Positions 13,768 through 63,421 of a stretch of 64,000 nt of DNA are shown here, in pieces. This DNA comes from Escherichia coli (GTDB lineage Bacteria > Pseudomonadota > Gammaproteobacteria > Enterobacterales > Enterobacteriaceae). A program made the translations under genes and the position numbers. The stretch is from the NCBI RefSeq assembly GCF_003334305.1, contig NZ_QOWS01000009.1, one strand, 5' to 3'. Under the pieces are notes generated by a model, which saw nothing but the letters and a program-made list of their open reading frames with translations, had not been told where the DNA came from and did not search any database. How positions within the stretch are numbered: position 1 is the stretch's first letter; every line of letters starts with the position of its first letter.

Positions 13768-15212
13768 CGCTGGATACGCTTAATGTGATGCTGGCCGTCA
13801 GCGAAGAGGGATTGATCGAAGAGATGATCATCGCACTGCTGGCCTCACCGCAGCTGGCGGTCTTCTTTGAAAAATTCCCACGCCTGAAGGCGGCAATCAC
13901 TGATGATGTTCCCCGCTGGCGTGAAGCGCTGCGCAGTCGGCTGAAAGATGCCCGAGTCCCGCCGGAACTCACCGAAGAGGTGATGTGCTATCAGCAAAGC
14001 CAGCTCCTCTCCACGCCACAGTTTATTGTGCAGCTACCACAGATCCTGGACTTACTGCATCGTCTGAATTCTCCATGGGCAGAACAAGCCCGACAGTTGG
14101 TTGATGCTAACAGCACGATCACTTCAGCGTTACACACGCTTTTTCTCCAGCGTTGGCGTTTAAGTCTGATCGTGCAAGCAACGACGTTAAATCAACAGCT
14201 ATTAGAAGAAGAACGCGAACAACTGTTGAGTGAAGTTCAGGAACGCATGACGCTGAGCGGACAACTTGAACCGATTCTCGCAGATAACAATACTGCAGCT
14301 GGTCGTCTGTGGGATATGAGCGCCGGTCAGCTTAAACGTGGCGACTATCAGTTGATTGTGAAATACGGTGAATTTCTTAACGAACAGCCGGAACTGAAAC
14401 GCCTGGCAGAGCAGCTGGGGCGTTCTCGGGAAGCCAAATCAATACCGCGCAACGATGCGCAGATGGAAACCTTCCGCACCATGGTGCGCGAACCGGCGAC
14501 GGTTCCTGAGCAGGTTGATGGTCTGCAACAAAGCGATGATATTTTACGTCTTCTGCCGCCAGAACTGGCGACACTAGGGATAACGGAACTGGAGTATGAG
14601 TTTTACCGTCGGCTGGTGGAAAAACAGTTGCTCACCTATCGCCTGCACGGTGAGTCGTGGCGTGAAAAAGTGATCGAACGTCCGGTGGTACATAAAGATT
14701 ACGATGAACAGCCGCGCGGGCCGTTTATTGTCTGTGTGGATACTTCCGGCTCAATGGGCGGCTTTAATGAACAGTGTGCGAAAGCGTTCTGCCTGGCCTT
14801 GATGCGCATTGCTCTCGCAGAAAACCGGCGCTGCTATATTATGCTATTTTCCACCGAGATCGTCCGTTATGAGCTTTCAGGCCCACAAGGCATCGAACAA
14901 GCAATCCGTTTTTTAAGCCAGCAGTTTCGTGGCGGCACCGATCTTGCCAGTTGTTTTCGCGCCATTATGGAACGCTTGCAAAGCAGGGAATGGTTTGATG
15001 CCGATGCGGTGGTGATTTCTGATTTTATCGCTCAGCGGTTGCCTGACGACGTGACGAGTAAAGTGAAAGAGCTGCAGCGGGTACATCAGCATCGCTTTCA
15101 TGCCGTGGCGATGTCGGCACACGGCAAACCCGGCATCATGCGCATTTTCGATCATATCTGGCGCTTTGATACCGGGATGCGAAGCCGCCTGCTCAGACGC
15201 TGGCGGCGATAA
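13761..15212 (+). CDS. viaA: VWA-domain protein ViaA (483 aa), partner of RavA
   Basis: C-terminal VWA domain with MIDAS-like DTSGSM motif; start overlaps ravA stop by 7 nt. Confidence 0.9.
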
Positions 15213-16840: not shown

Positions 16841-16880
16841 TTTTCCACAGGTAGATCCCAACGCGTTCACAGCGTACAAT
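16841..16880 (+). promoter_or_regulatory. mioC promoter region with DnaA box (TTTTCCACA 16841-16849) and -10 TACAAT (16875-16880)
   Basis: DnaA-box-like 9-mer and an adjacent GATC read directly upstream of mioC. Confidence 0.6.
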
Positions 16881-16908: not shown

Positions 16909-17352
16909 ATGGCAGATATCACTCTTATCAGCGGCAGCACCCTCGGCGGTGCCGAATATGTAGCAGAACACCTGGCTGAAAAGCTGGAAGAGGCGGGTTT
17001 TACCACCGAAACGCTGCACGGTCCGCTGTTGGAAGATTTATCTGCCTCGGGGATCTGGCTGATTATCAGCTCCACCCACGGTGCCGGAGATATTCCGGAC
17101 AACCTTTCTCCTTTCTATGAAGCATTGCAGGAACAGAAGCCCGATCTTTCTGCGGTCCGCTTTGGCGCAATCGGTATTGGTAGTCGTGAATATGACACCT
17201 TTTGTGGGGCTATCGATAAACTCGAGGCAGAACTCAAAAATTCCGGTGCAAAACAGACAGGCGAAACACTGAAGATCAACATTCTTGATCACGACATTCC
17301 GGAAGATCCGGCAGAAGAATGGCTGGGATCGTGGATTAATTTACTCAAATAA
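16909..17352 (+). CDS. mioC: Flavodoxin-like FMN-binding protein MioC (147 aa)
   Basis: ORF MADITLISGSTLGGAEYVAEHLAEKLEEAGF...; lies immediately next to oriC. Confidence 0.93.
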   Translation: MADITLISGSTLGGAEYVAEHLAEKLEEAGFTTETLHGPLLEDLSASGIWLIISSTHGAGDIPDNLSPFYEALQEQKPDLSAVRFGAIGIGSREYDTFCGAIDKLEAELKNSGAKQTGETLKINILDHDIPEDPAEEWLGSWINLLK

Positions 17353-17369
17353 GTATACAGATCGTGCGA

Positions 17370-17630
17370 TCTACTGTGGATAACTCTGTCAGGAAGCTTG
17401 GATCAACCGGTAGTTATCCAAGGAACAACGGTTGTTCAGTTTTTGAGTTGTGTATAACCCCTCATTCTGATCCCAGCTTATACGGTCCAGGATCACCGAT
17501 CATTCACAGTTAATGATCCTTTCCAGGTTGTTGATCTTAAAAGCCGGATCCTTGTTATCCACAGGGCAGTGCGATCCTAATAAGAGATCACAATAGAACA
17601 GATCTCTAAATAAATAGATCTTCTTTTTAA
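17370..17630. other. oriC: Chromosomal replication origin oriC: DnaA boxes R4 (17375-17383), R3 (17413-17421), R2 (17449-17457), R5M (17500-17508), R1 (17555-17563); AT-rich 13-mers R/M/L (17577-17620)
   Basis: TTATCCACA / TTATACACA 9-mers in canonical order and spacing, three GATCTnTTnTTTT-type 13-mers, dense GATC sites, position between mioC and mnmG. Confidence 0.93.
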
Positions 17631-17730
17631 TACCCAAGATCCCAGGTCTTTCTCAAGCCGACAAAGTTGAGTAGAATCCACGGCCCGGGCTTCAATCCAT
17701 TTTCATACCGCGTTATGCGAGGCAATCACC

Positions 17731-19620
17731 ATGTTTTATCCGGATCCTTTTGACGTCATCATCATTGGCGGGGGTCATGCAGGCACCGAGGCCGCGATGG
17801 CCGCGGCGCGTATGGGTCAACAGACTCTGCTTTTGACACACAATATCGACACTCTGGGGCAGATGAGCTGCAACCCGGCGATCGGCGGTATTGGGAAGGG
17901 ACATCTGGTAAAAGAAGTGGATGCACTCGGCGGTCTGATGGCGAAAGCGATCGATCAAGCGGGTATCCAGTTTAGGATACTAAACGCAAGCAAAGGACCG
18001 GCGGTTCGCGCTACCCGAGCTCAGGCGGATCGTGTGCTCTACCGTCAGGCGGTACGTACGGCGCTGGAGAACCAACCGAACCTGATGATCTTCCAGCAGG
18101 CGGTTGAAGATCTTATTGTCGAAAACGATCGCGTGGTCGGTGCTGTTACCCAAATGGGACTGAAGTTCCGTGCCAAAGCCGTCGTGCTCACCGTTGGGAC
18201 GTTCCTCGACGGTAAAATTCATATCGGTCTGGATAATTACAGCGGTGGCCGTGCTGGTGATCCGCCGTCCATTCCGCTTTCTCGCCGTTTGCGTGAACTG
18301 CCGCTGCGCGTTGGTCGTCTGAAAACCGGGACACCACCGCGTATTGATGCTCGAACTATCGACTTTAGTGTGCTGGCGCAACAGCATGGCGATAACCCAA
18401 TGCCGGTATTCTCGTTTATGGGCAATGCGTCCCAGCATCCCCAGCAGGTGCCGTGTTATATCACTCATACCAACGAGAAAACCCATGATGTGATCCGCAG
18501 TAACCTCGATCGTAGCCCAATGTATGCAGGGGTGATCGAAGGTGTCGGCCCACGCTACTGCCCGTCGATCGAAGACAAAGTCATGCGCTTCGCCGACAGA
18601 AATCAGCATCAGATCTTCCTTGAACCGGAAGGGCTGACTTCTAACGAAATTTATCCGAACGGTATCTCCACCAGCCTGCCGTTCGATGTGCAGATGCAAA
18701 TCGTCCGCTCTATGCAGGGGATGGAAAACGCGAAGATCGTGCGTCCGGGTTATGCCATTGAGTATGACTTCTTCGATCCTCGCGACCTGAAACCGACGCT
18801 GGAGAGCAAGTTTATCCAGGGGCTGTTCTTTGCTGGTCAGATTAACGGCACTACCGGTTACGAAGAAGCCGCTGCGCAAGGTTTGCTGGCCGGTCTTAAC
18901 GCTGCCCGTCTGTCTGCTGACAAAGAAGGTTGGGCTCCGGCGCGTTCTCAGGCCTATCTCGGCGTACTGGTTGATGACCTGTGCACTTTAGGAACCAAAG
19001 AACCGTATCGTATGTTTACTTCGCGCGCAGAATATCGTCTGATGCTGCGCGAAGATAATGCGGATCTGCGTTTGACTGAAATCGGTCGTGAACTGGGCCT
19101 GGTGGATGACGAACGTTGGGCGCGCTTTAACGAGAAACTTGAGAATATCGAGCGTGAGCGTCAGCGTCTGAAATCGACCTGGGTAACCCCGTCGGCGGAA
19201 GCTGCAGCCGAAGTGAATGCTCACCTGACTGCGCCGCTTTCCCGTGAAGCCAGTGGTGAAGATCTGCTGCGTCGTCCGGAAATGACTTATGAAAAATTAA
19301 CCACGCTGACGCCGTTTGCCCCTGCGTTGACAGACGAACAGGCGGCGGAACAGGTTGAGATTCAGGTTAAATACGAAGGTTATATCGCGCGCCAGCAAGA
19401 TGAGATCGAAAAGCAGCTGCGTAACGAGAACACCCTGCTACCAGCGACACTGGATTACCGCCAGGTATCCGGTCTTTCTAACGAAGTGATCGCCAAACTT
19501 AACGATCACAAACCGGCCTCTATCGGCCAGGCTTCACGTATTTCTGGCGTCACGCCTGCGGCCATCTCCATTCTGCTGGTGTGGCTGAAAAAACAGGGTA
19601 TGCTGCGTCGTAGCGCATAA
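17731..19620 (+). CDS. mnmG: tRNA uridine-5-carboxymethylaminomethyl modification enzyme MnmG/GidA (629 aa)
   Basis: FAD-binding N-terminus [22 protein letters not shown]; conserved position. Confidence 0.95.
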
Positions 19621-51885: not shown

Positions 51886-53223
51886 ATGAGTCAACAACAC
51901 ACAACCCAGGCTTCTGGCCAGGGGATGCTGGAACGCGTGTTTAAACTGCGCGAACATGGCACGACGGCACGGACCGAAGTGATCGCCGGTTTTACCACCT
52001 TCCTGACGATGGTTTACATCGTTTTTGTTAACCCGCAAATTCTTGGCGTTGCTGGCATGGATACCAGCGCCGTCTTCGTCACTACCTGTCTGATCGCTGC
52101 ATTCGGCAGTATTATGATGGGACTGTTTGCTAACCTGCCAGTTGCACTGGCACCCGCTATGGGCCTGAATGCGTTCTTCGCTTTTGTCGTTGTACAGGCG
52201 ATGGGCTTGCCGTGGCAGGTCGGGATGGGCGCAATCTTCTGGGGCGCGATAGGTCTGCTGTTACTGACGATTTTCCGCGTTCGCTACTGGATGATTGCCA
52301 ACATTCCGGTGAGTCTGCGTGTGGGTATTACCAGCGGTATCGGTCTGTTCATTGGCATGATGGGGCTGAAAAACGCAGGTGTGATTGTCGCTAACCCGGA
52401 AACGCTGGTGAGCATCGGTAATCTGACTTCTCACAGCGTACTTCTGGGTATCCTCGGCTTCTTCATCATTGCTATTCTGGCCTCGCGCAACATTCACGCA
52501 GCGGTGCTGGTTTCTATCGTGGTGACGACGCTGCTGGGCTGGATGCTGGGTGATGTGCACTACAATGGCATCGTTTCTGCGCCGCCGAGCGTAATGACAG
52601 TTGTGGGTCATGTAGATTTAGCCGGGTCGTTTAACCTCGGGCTGGCAGGGGTGATTTTCTCTTTCATGCTGGTCAACCTGTTTGACTCCTCCGGTACGCT
52701 GATTGGCGTGACCGATAAAGCAGGCCTGGCGGATGAGAAGGGTAAATTCCCGCGCATGAAGCAGGCGCTGTATGTCGACAGTATCTCTTCCGTGACCGGT
52801 TCGTTTATCGGTACTTCTTCCGTTACGGCTTATATTGAGTCCTCTTCCGGCGTATCGGTTGGCGGTCGTACCGGTCTGACGGCAGTGGTTGTTGGTCTGC
52901 TGTTCCTGCTGGTTATCTTTCTGTCGCCGCTGGCGGGGATGGTGCCAGGCTACGCTGCAGCTGGTGCGCTGATTTACGTTGGCGTGCTGATGACTTCCAG
53001 TCTGGCACGCGTGAACTGGCAGGATCTTACTGAATCTGTTCCGGCGTTTATTACCGCCGTGATGATGCCGTTCAGCTTCTCGATTACCGAAGGTATCGCG
53101 CTGGGCTTTATCTCCTACTGCGTGATGAAAATCGGTACCGGACGTCTGCGTGATCTAAGCCCGTGCGTAATCATCGTTGCGCTGCTGTTTATCCTGAAGA
53201 TTGTCTTTATCGACGCTCACTAA
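51886..53223 (+). CDS. adeP: Adenine permease AdeP/YieG (NCS2/AzgA family, 445 aa)
   Basis: Polytopic transporter ORF; conserved position. Confidence 0.9.
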   Translation: MSQQHTTQASGQGMLERVFKLREHGTTARTEVIAGFTTFLTMVYIVFVNPQILGVAGMDTSAVFVTTCLIAAFGSIMMGLFANLPVALAPAMGLNAFFAFVVVQAMGLPWQVGMGAIFWGAIGLLLLTIFRVRYWMIANIPVSLRVGITSGIGLFIGMMGLKNAGVIVANPETLVSIGNLTSHSVLLGILGFFIIAILASRNIHAAVLVSIVVTTLLGWMLGDVHYNGIVSAPPSVMTVVGHVDLAGSFNLGLAGVIFSFMLVNLFDSSGTLIGVTDKAGLADEKGKFPRMKQALYVDSISSVTGSFIGTSSVTAYIESSSGVSVGGRTGLTAVVVGLLFLLVIFLSPLAGMVPGYAAAGALIYVGVLMTSSLARVNWQDLTESVPAFITAVMMPFSFSITEGIALGFISYCVMKIGTGRLRDLSPCVIIVALLFILKIVFIDAH

Positions 53224-53243
53224 AATCGATAGCGCGTTAAAAA

Positions 53244-53275
53244 CCCGCCATGCATGATTGCTGGCGGGTTTTTTA
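53244..53275. terminator. Bidirectional Rho-independent terminator between convergent adeP and chrR
   Basis: Hairpin CCCGCCA...TGGCGGG flanked by an A-run upstream and T-run downstream. Confidence 0.8.
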
Positions 53276-53276
53276 T

Positions 53277-53843
53277 TTAGATCTTAACTCGCTGAATAAA
53301 CTCACCAAATGCGGTCAATTGCCCGGTCAGGTGGTCCAGCGTACCCTGATCAATCACTTCTCCGGTTTGCGGATCAACTTTGTTCTGAATCACGCCGCCC
53401 ATAAATTCCGGCTTGTTCATCACCATTGCATCGAGGAAAACCAGAATCTGGCGCAGGTGATACTGACAGCGCGCGCCGCCAATCACGCCCATTGAGCTGG
53501 TCTGAATCAACACCGGTTTACCGGCCAGCGGTTGATCCGGCAGGCGGGAAAGCCAGTCGATGGCATTTTTCAGCCCACCCGGTACCGAGTAGTTATATTC
53601 CGGCGTGACGATCACCACACCGTCAGCCTGACGGATCTGTTCCGCCAGAGCTTCAACCGTTGCTGGAAAACCTTCTTCCTGCTGTACCTCAGCGTCATAC
53701 AGGGGAATGTCGGCAATGGAAGGTAACGCATTGACTTCCATGCTCGCCGGAGCAATTTTCGGCAGGGTACGTGCAACCATGCCATTAAATGAGCCTTTGC
53801 GCAGGCTCCCCAGTAACGTAACCACCTGCAATTTTTCAGACAT
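53277..53843 (-). CDS. chrR: NAD(P)H-dependent FMN reductase / chromate reductase ChrR/YieF (188 aa)
   Basis: MSEKLQVVTLLGSLRKGSFN...; flavodoxin-like fold sequence. Confidence 0.92.
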   Translation of the reverse strand: MSEKLQVVTLLGSLRKGSFNGMVARTLPKIAPASMEVNALPSIADIPLYDAEVQQEEGFPATVEALAEQIRQADGVVIVTPEYNYSVPGGLKNAIDWLSRLPDQPLAGKPVLIQTSSMGVIGGARCQYHLRQILVFLDAMVMNKPEFMGGVIQNKVDPQTGEVIDQGTLDHLTGQLTAFGEFIQRVKI

Positions 53844-53864
53844 AATGACTCCTGTGGTTGTCTA

Positions 53865-54626
53865 TCAATTTGGCGAAAAAGACTTCACGGTAGAGAGCTG
53901 GGCAAAACGCATCATCCGGCTGGTAGGATTGTTGGCGCGGCTGTGAATATCCGGCAGGCTTTTCCAGCTGTGTTTGCCATCTAACTCCCAGACACTGAGC
54001 TTTTCAATCGCGGGCGTGACCGCCACGGACCACACTAGCACGTCCTCCGCGTCGCATAACGCTTCTACATGATTTACATGAGCACATTTCAGGCGTCCGG
54101 CAATGGGCAGCAGCTGCAGATCGCGCGGATCGTCATTCAAAACATCACCGGTTAGTTTTAGCACGCTTCGGCGCAGCGTGATGAGCTGCGCCCGCGCTTC
54201 GTTAGGATCGTTTTGTTTACTGATCCATAGCGATTCATTGCTGGAAAAGGTGTGGTTATCGGGCGCGTGTGGGCTATGAAACCCGCGCGTCGCACGCTGT
54301 AGTTCCATATCGAGGCCACATTCACCTTCGGTTGTTAACGCCACGCCAACCATATTCCCGGCATAGGAAATAGAAAACGAAGGCAAATTTTTATCACTGA
54401 AAACCGGTTTACCTTTCGGCAGGGTGACGATTTCCGGCAATTCGCCAATGCCATACAGCATGAACATCAGTTCTGCGAGTAAACCTCTGGACGCCAGAAA
54501 ACGGCTTTGACGATGAGGGGGAATGTTTCGGGCTTCTTGATGACACTGGGAGGGGAGACGAACAGAAATCAGATGTCCTTCCGTTAAAATCCCTCGGGCA
54601 AAGTGAGTCGCCATTTTTCGCTCCAT
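53865..54626 (-). CDS. yieE: Putative 4'-phosphopantetheinyl transferase YieE (ORF 253 aa; start may be a few codons internal)
   Basis: Conserved position; PPTase-like sequence. Confidence 0.8.
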   Translation of the reverse strand: MERKMATHFARGILTEGHLISVRLPSQCHQEARNIPPHRQSRFLASRGLLAELMFMLYGIGELPEIVTLPKGKPVFSDKNLPSFSISYAGNMVGVALTTEGECGLDMELQRATRGFHSPHAPDNHTFSSNESLWISKQNDPNEARAQLITLRRSVLKLTGDVLNDDPRDLQLLPIAGRLKCAHVNHVEALCDAEDVLVWSVAVTPAIEKLSVWELDGKHSWKSLPDIHSRANNPTSRMMRFAQLSTVKSFSPN

Positions 54627-54770
54627 GCTTAATGGTCCATTATGAATATAAGAGTAATCATTTACTGGAATGATGGACAGACTAAAGCGGCTAAAAGTTC
54701 GATTCAGACAAGCTTATTACAACTTTTTTACATTTTATTGTGAAATTGGGTCGCGTTTCATACGATTCGG

Positions 54771-55730
54771 TTATGCCATCGACGCGTAAAGGTTTTTAAT
54801 GGTTTCCCGTAACCAGACGATCTTCGGATTATGGCTGTTCCATTTATGCCACAGCAGGGTAAAAGGAACTTCCAGCTTTTTTTGCTGGCTTTCGTCAAAC
54901 GGGAGAGGAAGAGCAACCAACGGCAGTTGATGGAGTTGATTGTAGTACTGACAGTAGCGCGGCGCGGTCGCCAGTAGCAGATTGTCGGGTTGCGCTGCCA
55001 TAAACAGTGACTGCTCAAATTCCGGCAGGCTCATAGCAATCGTGCGTTCGCGCCCCAGCTCCTGTAACACATTGTCCAGCGCCCAGGTGTCGCTCTGTTC
55101 CCAGCAAATGCTGATATGCGGATAACGTAAAAAGGTGTCCAGATTCCACGTTTCATGCAGTGCCGGATGATCTTTGCGTAACCAGACGCAGGGTACATCA
55201 CTAAACAGCACTTCATAATCAATGGCTAACGGTAGCGAGCTTAACAGCTCCCGCGAGCGAGGATGGCTTTCGCGACCGGAAAAACCAATATCCACTTCAC
55301 CACGAGTAATGGCATCTAAGGAATCGTAATCCCAGTTACGTAGTTTGATGGTCGCCTGCGGGTAACGTTGGTAGATCCGTTTCGACAGCGCATTAAGCAT
55401 GATCATCATCAGCGGCGATTCCGCCGCCAACTCAAACTTCAGGCCGCGCGGTGTCTGGTGGTGCGGTTTATCCAGCAGCAGATTGCTCATTTGCATCCAT
55501 TCCGCCAGATTTTGCTCCATGCTGACCATTAGCGGTGTGGGCGACAGCCCCAGCGGTGAGTTCACAAAGAGCGGGTCGTCAAACCACGCTCTTAACTTTG
55601 CCAGCGACTTACTCACCGCTGAAGGGGTCACGTTCATCCGCTTCGCCGCTTTGGTCACGCTGCGCTCCTGCATCAGCAGTTGCAGACAGAGCAGCAGATT
55701 GAGATCAAGCGTGGTGATGGATTTCTTCAT
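54771..55730 (-). CDS. yidZ: LysR-family transcriptional regulator YidZ (319 aa)
   Basis: N-terminal LysR HTH ([25 protein letters not shown]). Confidence 0.88.
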
Positions 55731-56880
55731 GAGCGGCAACGGGGCGTCCAGGCGCGACGAACATAATCAGTAACAGGCTCACTATGCTACAGGCAATCAG
55801 AATCCCGATCAGCATATTCCATGCGCCGATACCAACCACCGCTGCCAGCCAAATCCACAGTGACGAACCGCAAACCTGCGCAATACCTAAGGTCGAGCTG
55901 GCTACGCCCGCGCGTAATGAAAATGGTCCTAACGCCTGACTCATCGCTACGCCAAAACCTACCGAGAAACCGGCGCAAATCAGCGTGATACCAAACAGAG
56001 AAACCGCATGGGAAGGTGAAACGGCAAGGGTGATCCCCGCCGCAAGGAATAACACCTGCGAGGTGATCATCAACGTACGTGGCTTAAAAATTCCCAGCGC
56101 AAATGGCGTGGAGAATGAAACGGTCATGCTGACGCCAGCGGTCAACGCCATAATGGTGGCGTATTCTCCGCGCTCAAAACCCATGATTTCCATCAGCAAT
56201 ACCGGCGATGTATTGACGAAAGTGAGGATCACCGAAACGCTGAGGGTGGTGATAACAACACGGCTGAGGAAAAACCGATTAAGCAGCGACTCGCTATTTT
56301 CTCGTGGTTTGTCCGAAGCAGCGGGGGACGCTGGGCGCGTTTCTTTTAAAATAAACAAAGATAACATCAGTACCGCGATGCCCATCATTGCCATCGTCCA
56401 GAACAGACTCTGCCAAGGGAATTTAAGCATAATCAGGTGTCCGAGCACCGGCGCTAACACCGGAATGATGCAGGTAATACCGTTGAGTAACGACAGCACT
56501 TTAGCCCGACGTCGATCATCCAGCGTGTCGCGCAAAATGGCGAACGCCACCACGTAACAACAGCCTGCGCCCAACCCCTGTAGAAAGCGCCCTGCAAGAA
56601 ATAACGTGCTGGTTTCAGCCAGTGAACAGAACACCGAAGCGATAATAAATAGCGCCGCGCCGGGGATGGCGACAGGCTTTCTCCCTGAACGATCGGCCAC
56701 TTTACCGGCAAATAACATCGCAGCTGCCATGCCCGCCAGATAAACGGAGAACGCAATATGCAACTGCGCTTCGCTGGCATTGAGATCGGCGGCGATGCGC
56801 GGTAAACCAACGAGGTACATATCAATCCCGGCGGGATAAAGTAAAACCAGGGCAAAACTACAAATTAAAAAGCGGGACAT
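55705..56880 (-). CDS. mdtL: MFS multidrug efflux transporter MdtL (391 aa)
   Basis: 12-[42 protein letters not shown]... Confidence 0.92.
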
Positions 56881-56976
56881 GGGCTAAAGCGTCCTGATAG
56901 TAAGGTGACGCAAAGCATACGTGGTGAAGGAGAATCAGGCGAGTTGCCATTTGGACATAAGTGATTTCCTGAGAGG

Positions 56977-57005
56977 CAAGAAGCCAGCGAATGGCTGGCT
57001 TCTTG
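56977..57005 (-). terminator. Hairpin downstream of tnaB (CAAGAAGCCAGC...GCTGGCTTCTTG); weak U-tract
   Basis: 12-bp inverted repeat 7 bp past the tnaB stop. Confidence 0.45.
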
Positions 57006-57011
57006 AAGGAT

Positions 57012-58259
57012 TTAGCCAAATTTAGGTAACACGTTAAAGACGTTGCCGAACCAGCACAAAATCACGGTTATACCAAAGAGAATGACAATCGCCGGAATAA
57101 GATTGCCGCCCCAGACCGTGAACATCTGATTGGGAAACTTCTTGCGAGCTTTGATTGCAAGCACTGCGGGAATAATGACCGCCCAGATGGTGGCGCACAG
57201 CCCGGCACCGCCGATCCCGTAAATAAAGCCGTTCGGGAAGATCAGATACAACAACGCAGGTGGCAGGAAGGTTAACAGCACGGTTTTGAAACGCCCGCCG
57301 TGGGAGTTATCAATCTTAAACAGGTCCGCCAGATAATCGAACAACCCCAGCGTGACACCAAAGAACGAACTGGCAACAGCTAAGTTAGAGAACACCAGCA
57401 GGCAAAACTCGATAATGCCGTGCTGTTTGGTGCCGAGGAACGATTTCACCAGCGAATCAACGTTGCCGCCTGAGGAGATTATCGCCTTAAAGCTTTCGCG
57501 CGGAATATTCCCCATCGTGCAATAGAGCCAGAAGAGATAAATCACCAGCGCCAGCAGCGAACCAAATACCACGCTTTTGATTAACTTATCTTTGCGTTTT
57601 CCATAGCAAATAATCAGGCTGGGAATATTGCCGTGGAAACCAAATGACGCCAGACACACCGGCAAAGCCATAAAGATATACGGGAAGTAAGACGTTCCCG
57701 CAGTGGTGCTGGTGGCATCGCGCAGGATGGAGTAATCGACCTGGAAGAAGAAAGAACCAAACACGATCACAAAGGAGATAATCTTCAGCCCGAGGAACAA
57801 TGAGGTAATGCGACTGGCGGCTAACGAACTTATCCACAATACGCTGGCAACGAAAATGGCTGTGCAGATCCCGACAATACGTGGATTAGCGTGATAGCCC
57901 AAATTCATTGATATCGTTTCACTAATGATCGCACCATTAGCAGAGATATAGGCATAAGTGAGGATATAGAGAACGAAGGCAACGGTAATACCGCTGATAA
58001 TGTTCCAGGTGTTACCGATTAAATCTTTGGTGATGGTGTTAAAACTGGAGCCGACAGGATAATTTAAATTTGCTTCTAATAACAATAACCCGGAATGAAG
58101 CATTGAAAACCAGGCAATGATAAGGATAAAGGCACCCCAGAAAAACCAGGCACCGGCAAGATCAACAGGTAAAGCAAACATACCTCCACCAATTACTGTA
58201 CCTGCTATAACCATAACACCCCAAAATGCAGAGTGCTTTTTTTCAGCTTGATCAGTCAT
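57012..58259 (-). CDS. tnaB: Low-affinity tryptophan permease TnaB (415 aa)
   Basis: Aromatic amino acid permease family; follows tnaA. Confidence 0.95.
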   Translation of the reverse strand: MTDQAEKKHSAFWGVMVIAGTVIGGGMFALPVDLAGAWFFWGAFILIIAWFSMLHSGLLLLEANLNYPVGSSFNTITKDLIGNTWNIISGITVAFVLYILTYAYISANGAIISETISMNLGYHANPRIVGICTAIFVASVLWISSLAASRITSLFLGLKIISFVIVFGSFFFQVDYSILRDATSTTAGTSYFPYIFMALPVCLASFGFHGNIPSLIICYGKRKDKLIKSVVFGSLLALVIYLFWLYCTMGNIPRESFKAIISSGGNVDSLVKSFLGTKQHGIIEFCLLVFSNLAVASSFFGVTLGLFDYLADLFKIDNSHGGRFKTVLLTFLPPALLYLIFPNGFIYGIGGAGLCATIWAVIIPAVLAIKARKKFPNQMFTVWGGNLIPAIVILFGITVILCWFGNVFNVLPKFG

Positions 58260-58349
58260 GATGCCACCTTTAGAGGAAGGCTATTTTTGTTATTGAGGAT
58301 GTAGGGTAAGAGAGTGGCTAACATCCTTATAGCCACTCTGTAGTATTAA

Positions 58350-59765
58350 TTAAACTTCTTTCAGTTTTGCGGTGAAGTGACGCAATACTTTTGGTTCGTA
58401 GGTAAAGGTTAATCCTTTAATATTCGCCGCGTTCTCTTTCACATGTTTAAAGGCTTCAATAATGAAGTCCATATGTGTTTGAGTATATGTTGCGCGCGGA
58501 ATGGTTAAACGCAGCAGTTCAGCCGGGCATGGCAGTTGTTTACCGGTTTTCGGATCGCGGCCTAACAGGAAAGAGCCAATTTCTACCGCACGGATACCGG
58601 CGACTTTATACAGCTCGCACGCCAGCGCCTGTGCCGGGAACTGGTCTGCCGGGATATGCGGCAGCAGTTTACCGGCATCAACGAATGCCGCGTGACCGCC
58701 CGCCTGCTGGCAGACAACGCCAATCTCTTCCAGACCATCGACCAGATACTGTACCTGCGCGATACGATAAGCCAGCCAGTCGAGATTCATGCCGTCATAC
58801 AGACCTACCGCCAGACGCTCCATCGCGCCGCCTTCCAGGCCGCCATATGTCGGGAACCCTTCCTGCACCACGCAAAGGGTTCTGCACTCGGTGTACACAT
58901 CAAAGAAGCTGTCGTCTTTCATGCACAGCAAGCCGCCCATCGGTACCATCGCATCTTTCTTGGCGGACATCGCCAGCATATCGGCATATTTGTAGGTTTC
59001 GCGGGTGATCTGCTCGATGGTCCAGTCTTTGTATTCTGCTTCACGCTGCTTGATGAAATAGGCGTTTTCAGCAAAGCGTGCGGAGTCCATTACCACCGGA
59101 ATATCGTATTTCTTCGCGATGCTGTACATCGCTTTTAAGTTTGCCAGTGAAACCGGCTGACCACCTGCAGAGTTACTGGTGATGGTTGCAACGATATACG
59201 GCACGTTATTCGGGCCAACTTCTTCAATACCGCGTTCTAATCCCTCAAGGTCAAAGTTACCTTTAAAGTCGTAACGCACGCCAGTATCGAAGGCTTCTTT
59301 GATATAGACGTTACGCACGGTACAGCCGTTAATCTGGCTATGGCCCTGCGTGGTATCAAAGAAATAGTTAGAGAATGCCACCATTTTGCTGCGATCCAGG
59401 CCTTTTTCCTGCTCGCGTTTTTTAATCAGTACCGGAATATAAATTTGCTCTGCGCCACGGCCCTGGTGAGTCGGAATGGTGTATTGATAACCAAAGATAT
59501 TTTTCACTGACTCGGCTAACGCATAGTAGCTGCGGCTGCCGCTGTAGGCTTCGTCGCCGCGCATCATCGCGGCCTGCATACTCTGCGTCACCGCCCCGGT
59601 GCCGCTGTCGGTCAGTAAATCGATAAACACATCTTCGCTATCCAGCAGGAATGGGTTCATACCGGATTTAATAATTGCCTCTTCACGATAAGCGCGAGTG
59701 GTACGTTTTACTGGCTCAATAACACGAATGCGGAACGGCTCAGGGAGATGTTTAAAGTTTTCCAT
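58350..59765 (-). CDS. tnaA: Tryptophanase (tryptophan indole-lyase) TnaA (471 aa)
   Basis: [32 protein letters not shown]...; start placed 5 codons inside the ORF-track ORF. Confidence 0.96.
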
Positions 59766-59985
59766 TACATAATCCTTCATTTATTTTAATTACAGTGATC
59801 CCTGTGAATATTACATCTGCAATATCCATTAATTCGCCATGTATATATACAAGCACCATCATTTACTAAAATAAGTAAATAAACGAGAGATGGCCTTTGC
59901 AAAAGGCAAAATTAAGATATAGCAAACTAATCGTTCACATTGAATCTAATCGGTTTGGCTCTGGTGATGGCTACAGAAGGGTAAA

Positions 59986-60060
59986 TTAAGGGCGGTGATC
60001 GACAATCTTATTATCGATATTGAACCATTTTGAGGTCACACATATATGTAAGATATTCAT
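59986..60060 (-). CDS. tnaC: tna operon leader peptide TnaC (24 aa, MNILHICVTSKWFNIDNKIVDHRP)
   Basis: Reverse complement of 59986-60060 translates to the 24-residue leader with Trp12 and C-terminal Pro24 followed by a stop. Absent from the ORF track because it is under 60 aa. Confidence 0.93.
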   Translation of the reverse strand: MNILHICVTSKWFNIDNKIVDHRP

Positions 60061-60135
60061 AATGCACTTATCCTCGAAAGACACGAGGCTACAGTATAAT
60101 ACTCAAGAATTTTGTCTATTCTAAAATTGTTTAAA

Positions 60136-60151
60136 TGTGAATCGAATCACA
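60136..60151. promoter_or_regulatory. CRP binding site of the tna promoter (TGTGAatcgaaTCACA, perfect half-sites)
   Basis: Perfect CRP consensus centred about 61 bp upstream of the predicted tna transcription start; minus-strand -10 region near 60093-60100. Confidence 0.8.
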
Positions 60152-60302
60152 ATCGTTCGGGGAGCAATATTAAATGCTTTTTTTTAAGATTATAAATTAC
60201 GTAAGAATTTTAATGTTTAAAAAAAGGGTTGAGGAATAACAGGAGTGCTAACAATGAAGCGAAGCCGCATCTGACAGTCAGAATACGGCTTCGTAAGCGC
60301 GG

Positions 60303-61667
60303 TTACTTACCAATACAGAAGCTGGAGAAAATCCGCCCCAGCAGGTCGTCTGAAGTAAATTCCCCGGTGATTTCGCTTAAGTTCTGCTGTGCCAGACGCA
60401 ACTCTTCCGCCAGCAGTTCACCTGCCCAGGCACCTAACAGTTGCGCTTTACCTTGCTGCAAATGCTCTGCCGCCTGTTCCAGCGCCTGTAGGTGGCGACG
60501 GCGCGCCAGGAAGCCGCCTTCCATGTTGGTGTCAAAGCCCATGCTCTGTTTGAGATGGTTACGCAGCACATCCACACCTTCACCAGTCCTTGCCGAGAGA
60601 CGAATTAACGCGTGACCGTTCACTTCACTCATTCCCAGCGTTTCGCCGGTGATATCGGCTTTATTGCGCACCACGGTGATCGGCAGTTTCGCTGGCAGAC
60701 GGGCGATAAATTCCGGCCAGATCTCTGCCGGATCAACGGCGTCTGTCGTGGTGCCATCGACCATAAACAGCACGCGGTCGGCCTGTTCAATTTCCTGCCA
60801 CGCGCGCTCGATACCAATACGTTCCACTTCGTCACTGGCTTCACGTAGCCCAGCGGTATCGATGATATGCAGCGGCATTCCGTCAATGTGGATATGCTCA
60901 CGCAGCACGTCACGTGTGGTTCCGGCGATATCAGTTACGATTGCTGCTTCACGGCCCGCCAGCGCGTTTAACAGGCTCGATTTACCGGCGTTAGGACGTC
61001 CGGCAATCACCACCTTCATCCCTTCGCGCAACAAACTACCCTGACGTGCTTCAGCACGCACTGCATCGAGATCGGCAATCACGTCATTAAGCTGGGCTTC
61101 AATTTTGCCGTCGGAGAGGAAATCGATCTCTTCATCAGGGAAATCAATTGCCGCTTCGACGTAAATGCGCAAGTGGGTGAGGGCTTCCACCAGATGGTTG
61201 ACCCGTGCGGAGAATGCGCCTTGCAGCGAGTTAAGTGCCGAACGGGCCGCCTGTTCCGAACTGGCGTCGATAAGATCGGCAATCGCCTCGGCCTGGGCTA
61301 AGTCGAGTTTATCGTTAAGAAACGCGCGTTCGGAAAACTCACCAGGGCGAGCAATCCGCAGGCCGGGAATGGTCAGAATGCGTTTTAACAGCAGGTCGAG
61401 GATCACCGGACCGCCATGACCTTGCAGTTCCAGCACATCTTCGCCGGTGAACGAGTTCGGGCCAGGGAACCATAGCGCAATCCCCTGATCGAGCACGCTG
61501 CCGTCGGCGTCTTTAAACGGAAGATAATCGGCGTAGCGCGGCTTAGGTAGTTTACCCAGCACGGTTTCGGCAACTTCACGGGCTTTGAAGCCGGAGATGC
61601 GCAGGATGCCAACGCCGCCACGTCCCGGAGGCGTGGCCTGGGCTACGATAGTGTCATTATCGCTCAT
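60303..61667 (-). CDS. mnmE: tRNA modification GTPase MnmE/TrmE (454 aa)
   Basis: G-domain motifs [10 protein letters not shown] and DTAG; C-terminal ...CIGK. Confidence 0.96.
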
Positions 61668-61772
61668 GATGTTCCTGTTGCTTTGTGTGGCGGATGCGCG
61701 GTGCTTATCCGCCCTACGAAAAGAAAAAAGGCGGTCAACTGACCGCCCTTATTTTAGCGAAAACTCACCGAA

Positions 61773-63419
61773 TCAGGATTTTTTCTTCTCGCGGCTATGC
61801 AGGCCACGTTTTTCCAGACCACGGTAAATCAGCTGCTGCTGAATAATGGTTACCAGGTTGCTGACGATATAGTACAGCACCAGACCTGACGGGAACCACA
61901 GGAAGAACACGGTGAAGATGACCGGCATAAAGGTCATGATCTTCTGCTGCATCGGGTCGGTCACTGTGGTCGGCGACATCTTCTGAATGAAGAACATCGT
62001 TACGCCCATCAGGATCGGCAGGATGTAGTACGGGTCCTGTGCCGACAGGTCGTGGATCCACAGTGCAAACGGTGCCTGACGCAGTTCAACGGAACCCATC
62101 AGCATGTAGTACAACGCCAGGAAGATTGGCATCTGGATCAGCAGCGGGAAGCAGCCGCCCAGCGGGTTAACCTTCTCAGCTTTGTACAGCGCCATCATTT
62201 CCTGGCTGATACGCTGTTTGTCATCGCCCAGACGCTCACGCATTGCCTGAATCTTCGGCTGCAGCATACGCATCTTCGCCATGGAGGTGTACTGCGCTTT
62301 GGTCAGCGGGTACATGATGCCACGAACGATAAAGGTGATGATGATAATGGAGAAGCCCCAGTTACCCACAAAGCTATGGATCCATTTCAGCAGTTTGAAC
62401 AGCGGCTGAGAGATGAACCACAACCAACCGTAATCAACGGTCAGATCCAGGTGCGGAGCAACAACTGCCATTTTGTCCTGGATTTCCGGGCCAACCCACA
62501 GGGTGCTGTTCATCGCGCCAGTCTGACCAGGCTGAACCAGTACCGGCTGAGATTTATAGCCGATAGCGGCGATGCCGTTACCCAGATTAGCGGTATAGAA
62601 GTTGTTGGTACCGTCGTTATGCGGGATCCACGCCGTCGCGAAATACTGTTGCAGCATTGCCACCCAACCACCTTTCGAAGAGATGTTCAGGTTTTCGTTA
62701 TCGGCAATGGTATCGAACTTGTATTTCTCGTACTTCTCGTCAGGCGTGGAGTACGCCGCGCCGCGGAAGGTGTGCAGTGCGAAGTTGCTGCTTCCGGTAT
62801 CGAGATGCGGTGGCAGAGTGATGGATTGCTTCAACTGACCAAAGGTGGAGATTTCCAGCGGTTTCTCGCCAGCGTTCTGCACGTTGTAGTTGACGTTGAC
62901 AGCGTAATCACCACGTTTCAGGACAAACGTTTTGGTAAACGTGTTGCCTGCCGCGTCGGTATACGTCATCGGCACCTGCAGTTCGTTTTGACCTTCAGCC
63001 AGCACATAAGCGTCTTTTTCAACGTTATACAGCGGACGCGGGCCGTTAGCCGGGTTATCCGGGCCATCACGACCGGTCAGACCGCTCTGTGCCTGATAAA
63101 TAAACTGCGGTGAAGTTTCCAGCAGCTGGAACGGCTGGGTAGAGTTCAGCTCTTTCGGGTAAGCAGGCAGCAGAGCTTGCTCAACATCACCACCACGGGT
63201 GTTGATGGTCAGATCAAGCACGTCGGTCTTAACCGAGATCAGTTTCCCCTGGCCACTGGCCGGTACGCCCTGGTCGGCGGCGCTACCCGCTGCGGTGGTC
63301 GTTGTCTGCGTGGTCTGTTGGGCCTGAGGTTGCGGGTTTTTATCCTGCTCCCAGGCTTGCCAGATCATGAAAGACACGAACAGCAAAGCGATGACTAAAA
63401 GATTGCGTTGCGAATCCAT
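61773..63419 (-). CDS. yidC: Membrane protein insertase YidC (548 aa)
   Basis: [26 protein letters not shown]...; Oxa1 family. Confidence 0.96.
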
Positions 63420-63421
63420 CG

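What the first reader, a model, noticed from the sequence alone, without database searches (positions are those of the whole stretch)
17370..17630. Chromosomal replication origin oriC inside the window
Canonical DnaA boxes R1-R5M, three AT-rich 13-mers and clustered GATC sites lie between mioC and mnmG. Any construct, deletion or assembly break here touches the origin. A possible single-base difference from the K-12 sequence near the 13-mer-proximal border (around 17636-17640) is a memory-based impression only.
Basis: partly seen in the sequence, partly recalled or inferred. Interest (0 to 1): 0.4.

Follow-up and report, generated by a model that had tools for sequence, protein, structure and literature searches.

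The report
Ordinary E. coli chromosomal origin oriC
This stretch is the well-known chromosomal replication origin (oriC) of Escherichia coli, in its usual place between mioC and mnmG, and it differs from the K-12 laboratory strain by three single bases that also occur in many natural isolates.

Summary
The finding is correct and ordinary. The window is an E. coli chromosome segment in reverse orientation to MG1655, 99.975% identical to strain 41. The mioC–mnmG intergenic region (17353–17730) matches MG1655 at 375 of 378 bases. All classical oriC elements are present at K-12 spacing:
- AT-cluster
- L, M and R 13-mers
- DnaA boxes R1, R5M, R2, R3 and R4
- Fis core
- 11 GATC sites in the 245-bp minimal origin, against about 1.2 expected

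The window's cumulative GC-skew minimum is at 17763, about 140 bp from the 13-mers. It lies at 17637 (classical position 6, C→T), outside the minimal origin. It destroys the BamHI site that defines position 1 but keeps the GATC.

- 17430, the degenerate centre of the Fis core.
- 17422, the ninth base of R3 (TTATCCAAA→TTATCCAAG), inside C3.

All three are natural alleles. The 17637 context is exact in 387 of 5,426 complete genomes, and the 17422/17430 context in 1,101. R3/C3 variation among E. coli strains is already published. The feature is already known and of low interest.

The parts
16841..16849 (+). Consensus DnaA box (TTTTCCACA) upstream of mioC, in the mioC promoter region
   Evidence: Exact TTWTNCACA match. 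Its role in DnaA repression of the mioC promoter comes from the literature (PMC4585315).
16909..17352 (+). mioC coding sequence. Its transcription reads into oriC.
   Evidence: ORF. Annotated MioC in the near-identical strain 41 and in MG1655.
17375..17383 (-). DnaA box R4 (TTATCCACA), high affinity, right end of the minimal origin
   Evidence: Identical to MG1655. 99% column conservation in 32 other Enterobacteriaceae.
17384..17427 (-). Right array of low-affinity DnaA-ATP sites (C1, I3, C2, C3). C3 contains the 17422 difference.
   Evidence: The sequence differs from MG1655 only at 17422. Site positions are inferred from the published rule of four 9-mers spaced by 2 bp between R4 and R2 (PMC6070618). 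They were not tested here.
17414..17422 (+). DnaA box R3, variant TTATCCAAG (K-12: TTATCCAAA). Overlaps C2 and C3.
   Evidence: Base 17422 is G here and A in MG1655. The exact surrounding 61-mer occurs in 1,101 of 5,426 genomes. R3/C3 variation was reported in 10 of 59 strains (PMC4585315).
17423..17437 (-). Fis core 15-mer (GAACAACCGTTGTTC), which fits GnnYAnnnnnTRnnC. Base 17430 is its degenerate centre.
   Evidence: Fit to the published Fis consensus was done by eye on the sequence. The consensus and the location between R2 and C3 come from PMC10380432 and PMC6070618. Position 213 is free across genera: G14/C11/A7.
17449..17457 (-). DnaA box R2 (TTATACACA), high affinity
   Evidence: Identical to MG1655.
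17458..17499 (+). Left low-affinity DnaA-ATP sites (I2, I1, τ2) with three GATC sites
   Evidence: Identical to MG1655. The 41-nt segment from R5M onwards is exactly conserved in 36 genomes of about 12 genera. Site names come from the literature.
17500..17508 (+). DnaA box R5M (TCATTCACA)
   Evidence: Identical to MG1655.
17509..17554 (.). R1–R5M interval that holds the IHF binding site and τ1
   Evidence: Identical to MG1655. IHF binding between R1 and R5M comes from the literature (PMC10325909 abstract). It was not tested here.
17555..17563 (+). DnaA box R1 (TTATCCACA), high affinity, next to the unwinding element
   Evidence: Identical to MG1655. 99% conserved across genera.
17577..17620 (-). 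Duplex unwinding element: 13-mers R (17577–17589), M (17592–17604) and L (17608–17620), each starting with GATC
   Evidence: Exact matches to GATCTCTTATTAG, GATCTGTTCTATT and GATCTATTTATTT. Conserved 88–100% across genera.
17621..17635 (-). AT-cluster flanking the L 13-mer, just outside the minimal origin
   Evidence: GGGTATTAAAAAGAA, identical to MG1655. 94% conserved across genera. Auxiliary role in unwinding and DnaB loading from PMC9198467.
17637..17637 (.). Single-base difference from K-12 (A here, G in K-12 on this strand; classical oriC position 6, C→T). It destroys the BamHI site GGATCC and leaves GATC 17638–17641 intact.
   Evidence: The exact 61-mer context occurs in 387 of 5,423 matching genomes. 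C is found in 30 of 32 other Enterobacteriaceae, so T is the derived state.
17650..17677 (+). Promoter-like site (TTCTCA-16-TAGAAT) reading into mnmG (gidA) and away from oriC
   Evidence: a consensus match only. The segment is almost invariant across genera.
17731..19620 (+). mnmG (gidA) coding sequence
   Evidence: ORF. Annotated in strain 41 and MG1655.

Best explanation
The region 17375–17635 is the chromosomal replication origin oriC of an Escherichia coli isolate. It is orthologous to the experimentally defined K-12 origin and almost identical to it.

The mechanism below is established for K-12 and inferred here from near-identity:
1. DnaA stays bound to the high-affinity boxes R1, R2 and R4.
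2. As DnaA-ATP accumulates, it fills the two arrays of low-affinity sites. The left array is R5M, τ2, I1 and I2. The right array is C1, I3, C2 and C3/R3.
3. Filling the right array displaces Fis from its site between R2 and C3. [quoted passage not shown]
4. The complex unwinds the M and R 13-mers, then the L 13-mer and the AT-cluster.
5. DnaB helicases are loaded in both directions.
6. The 11 GATC sites, once hemimethylated after firing, are sequestered by SeqA to block re-initiation.

The three differences from K-12 are common natural alleles and most likely have little or no effect.
For: **Shown here**
- 375/378 identity to the MG1655 mioC–mnmG intergenic region, with no indels.
- All named elements sit at the K-12 positions.
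- The flanking genes are mioC and mnmG.
- The region occurs in 5,425 of 5,426 complete E. coli genomes, always on the chromosome and never on a plasmid, with a median of one place per genome.
- The cumulative GC-skew minimum of the window is at 17763. Skew is negative to the left and positive to the right.
- GATC density is the maximum of the window.
- The 13-mers, R1, R2, R3/C2 core and R4 are 88–100% conserved in 32 genomes of other Enterobacteriaceae genera. Spacers are 61–78% conserved.
- The three variant bases occur in 7% and 20% of complete genomes.
- Strain ECONIH1 differs from the window only at 17637.

**From the literature**
- The mechanism (PMC6070618, PMC9198467, PMC10380432).
- Natural R3/C3 variation in 10 of 59 strains (PMC4585315).
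Against: - Nothing contradicts the identification.
- Origin firing was not and cannot be shown with sequence tools.
- The GC-skew test covers only 64 kb, not the whole replicon.
- The variant R3 now has two mismatches to TTWTNCACA, so one of the five R boxes is not canonical.
Confidence: 0.97

Rival explanations
1. It is oriC, but the variant haplotype (C6T, A213C, T221C) measurably changes initiation. One route would be weaker DnaA binding at R3/C3. Another would be altered Fis affinity, shifting initiation timing or synchrony relative to K-12.
For: - T221C hits the ninth base of R3, inside C3. That position is T in 27 of 32 other Enterobacteriaceae.
- A213C raises the G+C of the centre of the Fis core.
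Against: - The R3/Fis-region alleles are exact in 1,101 of 5,426 genomes.
- Position 213 is freely variable across genera and has three alleles within E. coli.
- The Fis consensus match is unchanged.
- Published work reports that chromosomal origins lacking R3, or the Fis site, still initiate (PMC4585315).
- Position 6 lies outside the minimal origin and outside the AT-cluster.
Confidence: 0.1
2. The single-base difference at 17637 is a sequencing or assembly error rather than a real allele.
For: None beyond its being a single base in one window.
Against: The identical 61-mer is present in 387 independent complete genomes. The whole 25 kb around it is 100% identical in several unrelated assemblies.
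Confidence: 0.01
3. The motif cluster is a chance or relic arrangement and the active origin lies elsewhere.
For: With one mismatch allowed, DnaA-box-like 9-mers are not uniquely dense here. A 250-bp stretch inside viaA has five.
Against: - Orthology to the experimentally defined origin.
- Conservation of every element across genera.
- GC-skew switch at the site.
- Single copy, chromosomal only, in all E. coli genomes.
- The viaA cluster has no exact box, no 13-mers and no GATC cluster.
Confidence: 0.01

Closest known systems
Escherichia coli K-12 MG1655 oriC (NC_000913.3, annotated 3925744–3925975; classical minimal origin positions 23–267)
   Same: - Same flanking genes.
- Same length and spacing.
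- Identical 13-mers, AT-cluster, R1, R5M, R2, R4 and left-half low-affinity sites.
- The same 11 GATC sites.
- 375/378 identical over the intergenic region.
   Different: Three substitutions:
- 17637: classical C6T, with loss of the BamHI site.
- 17430: classical A213C, centre of the Fis core.
- 17422: classical T221C, R3 ninth base, inside C3.
oriC of natural E. coli isolates such as strain 41, WL164, W and ECONIH1
   Same: - The 25 kb around oriC is 100% identical in strain 41 and WL164.
- A 601-base stretch across it is 100% identical in E. coli W.
- ECONIH1 shares the 17422/17430 alleles.
   Different: ECONIH1 carries the K-12 base at 17637. Other isolates carry different spacer substitutions.
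Enterobacterial oriC family (Citrobacter, Klebsiella, Enterobacter, Kluyvera, Kosakonia, E. albertii)
   Same: Same architecture, and the same GATC positions in 30–32 of 32 genomes for 11 of 14 sites. The 13-mers, R1, R2, the R3/C2 core and R4 are 88–100% conserved column by column.
   Different: Spacers diverge (61–78% conservation). These are other species' origins, not the same allele.

Membership tests
E. coli / enterobacterial oriC | Lies in the intergenic region between mioC and mnmG (gidA) | tested here: met
   ORFs. Annotations of MG1655 and strain 41.
E. coli / enterobacterial oriC | Sequence orthology to the experimentally defined K-12 origin | tested here: met
   375/378 identical with no gaps.
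E. coli / enterobacterial oriC | Three AT-rich 13-mers, each beginning with GATC, next to R1 (duplex unwinding element) | tested here: met
   Exact matches at 17577–17620. The segment is 73% A+T, in the top 1.1% of the window.
E. coli / enterobacterial oriC | High-affinity DnaA boxes R1, R2 and R4 matching TTWTNCACA at K-12 spacing and orientation | tested here: met
E. coli / enterobacterial oriC | Boxes R5M and R3 as in K-12 | tested here: inconclusive
   R5M is identical. R3 differs at its ninth base (TTATCCAAG), a variant found in about 20% of genomes and reported in 10 of 59 strains (PMC4585315). It is not a defining failure, because published work questions whether R3 or the overlapping C3 is the functional site.
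E. coli / enterobacterial oriC | Cluster of 11 GATC (Dam/SeqA) sites in the 245-bp minimal origin | tested here: met
   11 sites between 17401 and 17620, all at K-12 positions.
E. coli / enterobacterial oriC | GC-skew sign change at the origin | tested here: met
   Cumulative minimum at 17763 within the 64-kb window. The whole replicon is not available.
E. coli / enterobacterial oriC | DnaA-dependent bidirectional initiation from this site | not testable with these tools
   Needs marker-frequency analysis or a minichromosome assay.

The most novel reading that the evidence does not exclude
The haplotype carried here is a weakened R3/altered C3, a G+C-richer Fis core centre and loss of the position-6 C next to the AT-cluster. 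It might be a functional natural variant that shifts the DnaA-ATP threshold for Fis displacement, and so initiation timing, in a lineage making up about 7% of sequenced E. coli.
Probability: 0.07. Interest if true: 0.3.

Novelty: already known. Interest (0 to 1): 0.05.

Why it matters
There is no scientific novelty. E. coli oriC is one of the best-studied DNA elements, and variation among strains, including at R3/C3, is already published.

The practical points are these:
- **No annotation.** RefSeq/PGAP records carry no feature over this stretch. 'none' is listed under the matches, and the fetched stretches list no feature. Anyone editing, deleting or breaking an assembly at 17375–17635 would hit the origin without warning from the annotation.
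- **BamHI site.** The site used historically to define and clone oriC is absent in this strain.
- **Replication direction.** Knowing the origin position fixes the direction of replication for the rest of the window. The + strand is the leading strand to the right of about 17.6 kb.

Tried and rejected
1. **Relaxed DnaA-box density.** I counted boxes with one mismatch allowed as a detector of the origin. It does not discriminate. A 250-bp stretch in viaA scores 5 against 4 at oriC. I relied instead on exact boxes, homology, GATC density and skew.
2. **Haplotype counts with 61-mer megablast queries.** Only the exact-match class is interpretable for the double-SNP query. Genomes differing at both 17422 and 17430 leave no 28-base word and drop out: 2,253 and 3,506 records matched, instead of about 5,425. 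I did not derive frequencies of the intermediate haplotypes from these numbers. A nine-strain panel was fetched instead.
4. **IHF consensus.** I could not place WATCAANNNNTTR on the R1–R5M interval by eye, so I give the interval only.
5. **Sequencing error at 17637.** Considered and rejected.
6. **Linkage of 17637 with the other two alleles.** Not counted directly. Only 2 of 30 evenly spaced ranks were 100% identical over 378 nt. That is compatible with most of the 387 genomes carrying all three alleles.

Full report
**What the window is.** A 601-base stretch around the finding matches 5,425 of 5,426 complete E. coli genomes. The matches are always chromosomal and never on a plasmid, with a median of one place per genome. 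A 25-kb stretch around it is 100% identical to strains 41 and WL164. The whole 64 kb is 99.975% identical to strain 41, with 14 mismatches and 2 gaps. Against MG1655 the window is colinear in reverse orientation: window 1–64000 corresponds to about 3,943,363 down to 3,884,495. Identity is 98.6–99.6%, apart from one 5.4-kb insertion and one short deletion. The gene order is yieP–mdtD–rbs–kup–ravA–viaA–asnA–asnC–mioC–[oriC]–mnmG–rsmG–atp–glmUS–….

**Checking the observation.** The ORF list shows a 147-aa ORF at 16909–17352 and a 629-aa ORF at 17731–19620, both on the + strand. They are annotated as mioC and mnmG in the near-identical genome and in MG1655. Classical oriC position p maps to window coordinate 17643 − p. 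The elements are:

| Element | Window coordinates |
|---|---|
| AT-cluster | 17621–17635 |
| 13-mer L | 17608–17620 |
| 13-mer M | 17592–17604 |
| 13-mer R | 17577–17589 |
| R1 | 17555–17563 |
| R5M | 17500–17508 |
| R2 | 17449–17457 |
| R3 | 17414–17422 |
| R4 | 17375–17383 |

**Is it more than chance?**
- There are 11 GATC sites in the 245-bp minimal origin against a window background of 5.0 per kb, about 1.2 expected. This is the densest 245-bp stretch of the window.
- TTATNCACA occurs 7 times in the window against 2.28 ± 1.46 in shuffles. Three of the 7 lie here.
- The unwinding segment is 73% A+T in a 50% A+T window.
- Allowing one mismatch in the DnaA box does not single out the origin. 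The strict boxes and the homology carry the argument.

**Alignment to K-12.** The 378-nt intergenic region aligns to MG1655 without gaps and with three substitutions.
- **17637.** A here, G in K-12 on this strand. It converts GGATCC to GGATCT, so the BamHI site that defines position 1 of the classical numbering is lost. The GATC at 17638–17641 remains. The base lies outside the minimal origin and one base beyond the AT-cluster.
- **17430.** Classical A213C. This is the eighth, degenerate position of a 15-mer that fits the Fis consensus GnnYAnnnnnTRnnC, and that fit is unchanged. The consensus, and the placement of the Fis site between R2 and C3, come from PMC10380432 and PMC6070618.
- **17422.** Classical T221C. 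This is the ninth base of R3 (TTATCCAAA→TTATCCAAG). By the published 2-bp spacing rule it falls inside the overlapping low-affinity site C3 (PMC6070618). That placement is inferred.

**How common are these alleles?**
- The exact 61-mer around 17637 is present in 387 of 5,423 matching genomes. Nearly all the others, MG1655 included, differ by one base.
- The exact 61-mer spanning 17422 and 17430 is present in 1,101 genomes. The K-12 version is present in 1,141.
- In a panel of nine strains taken at even steps down the similarity ranking, 16 of the 378 sites vary. Position 17430 has three alleles, and the K-12 base is in the minority. 17422-G occurs in two of the nine. 17637-A occurs in none. 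ECONIH1 differs from the window only at 17637.
- A published comparison of 59 E. coli genomes found the same picture. Binding sites were largely conserved and changes lay mainly in spacers. R3/C3 deviated from MG1655 in 10 of 59 strains in a way that worsens R3 but not C3 (PMC4585315).

**Comparison across genera.** A 41-nt pattern covering R5M, I1 and I2 is exactly conserved in 36 species-representative genomes. These include Citrobacter, Klebsiella, Enterobacter, Kluyvera, Kosakonia, Pluralibacter, Yokenella, Cedecea and E. albertii. I aligned 32 non-E. coli sequences with enough flank and scored column conservation:

| Element | Conservation |
|---|---|
| R 13-mer | 100% |
| M 13-mer | 94% |
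| L 13-mer | 88% |
| AT-cluster | 94% |
| R1 | 99% |
| R2 | 97% |
| R3 | 95% |
| R4 | 99% |
| Spacers | 61–78% |

The pattern region itself is invariant by construction and is not counted. Of the 14 GATC sites, 11 are conserved in at least 30 of 32 genomes. This polarises the three differences:
- Position 6 is C in 30 of 32, so the window's T is derived.
- Position 221 is T in 27 of 32, so the window's C is derived.
- Position 213 is unconstrained (G14, C11, A7).

**GC skew.** The cumulative skew of the + strand falls from base 1 to a minimum at 17763 and rises to about 48 kb. The sign change is therefore about 140 bp from the 13-mers, as expected for bidirectional replication from this site. 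Only the window could be tested.

**Mechanism.** The sequence is essentially the K-12 origin, so the K-12 mechanism is inferred:
1. DnaA is held at R1, R2 and R4.
2. DnaA-ATP progressively fills the two low-affinity arrays.
3. [quoted passage not shown]
4. The M and R 13-mers unwind first, then the L 13-mer and the AT-cluster.
5. DnaB is loaded.
6. SeqA sequesters the hemimethylated GATC sites.

This comes from PMC6070618, PMC9198467 and PMC10380432. mioC transcription enters the origin from the left of the window. A promoter-like site at 17650–17677 reads away from it into mnmG. None of these steps was tested here.

**Verdict.** The observation and the interpretation are both correct. The element is the known E. 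coli oriC, carrying a natural haplotype shared by several hundred sequenced isolates. Whether that haplotype has a small effect on initiation timing is open. It is unlikely to be large, given its frequency and the published tolerance of the chromosome to loss of R3 or the Fis site (PMC4585315).

Noticed in passing
window 31525–36947: A 5.4-kb low-GC segment (about 46% G+C) replaces the 205-bp glmS–pstS intergenic region of K-12, starting right after the glmS stop. In strain 41 it is annotated as the long polar fimbria operon lpfABCD-O113. This is a known accessory island.
   Followed up: partly
window about 40022–40029: About 84 bp present in MG1655 between pstB and pstA are absent from the window: the intergenic region is 183 bp in K-12 and 91 bp here. 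This may be loss or gain of a repetitive extragenic element. It was not examined.
   Followed up: no
window 48000–64000: The cumulative GC skew stops rising and stays flat. In this stretch most genes (yieH, cbrBC, yieEF, yidZ, mdtL, tnaCAB, mnmE, yidC, rnpA) lie on the − strand, so they are transcribed head-on to replication from oriC. The window ends at rnpA, just short of rpmH and dnaA.
   Followed up: partly
window 14615–14855 (inside viaA): Five DnaA-box-like 9-mers, each with one mismatch to TTWTNCACA, lie within 250 bp. This is the densest such cluster in the window. A rough Poisson estimate gives about 0.03 after correcting for the number of windows. There is no exact box, no GATC cluster and no AT-rich repeats, so it is probably chance.
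   Followed up: partly
window 17389–17620 versus 17375–17383: The MG1655 RefSeq 'origin_of_replication' feature (3925744–3925975, 232 bp) maps to window 17389–17620 and so leaves out DnaA box R4. The PGAP-annotated genomes carry no feature at all over the origin.
   Followed up: partly
window 17640–17730; loci L004–L039: The segment upstream of mnmG (GAAGCCCGGGCCGTGGATTCTACTCAACTTT in K-12 orientation) is nearly invariant across about 12 genera. It is more conserved than most of oriC's spacers and overlaps the promoter-like site at 17650–17677.
   Followed up: no
L024 (CACSKA010000004.1); H3 (NZ_CP026085.1): An assembly labelled Chryseobacterium sp. 18061 carries an enterobacterial oriC almost identical to that of Citrobacter sp. 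18056 from the same study. A 4.83-Mb record labelled E. coli DH5alpha carries the window's non-K-12 oriC haplotype. Both labels look wrong.
   Followed up: no
window 1–1556: The window starts inside a 16S rRNA gene on the − strand (rrsC of the rrnC operon in K-12 terms). A consensus DnaA box, TTATGCACA, lies at 1733–1741 between it and yieP.
   Followed up: no
L043 (E. coli EC488), equivalent to window 17620: One natural isolate has a substitution in the first base of the L 13-mer that destroys its GATC site. This matches a published note that a few strains lose a GATC in the unwinding element (PMC4585315).
   Followed up: no
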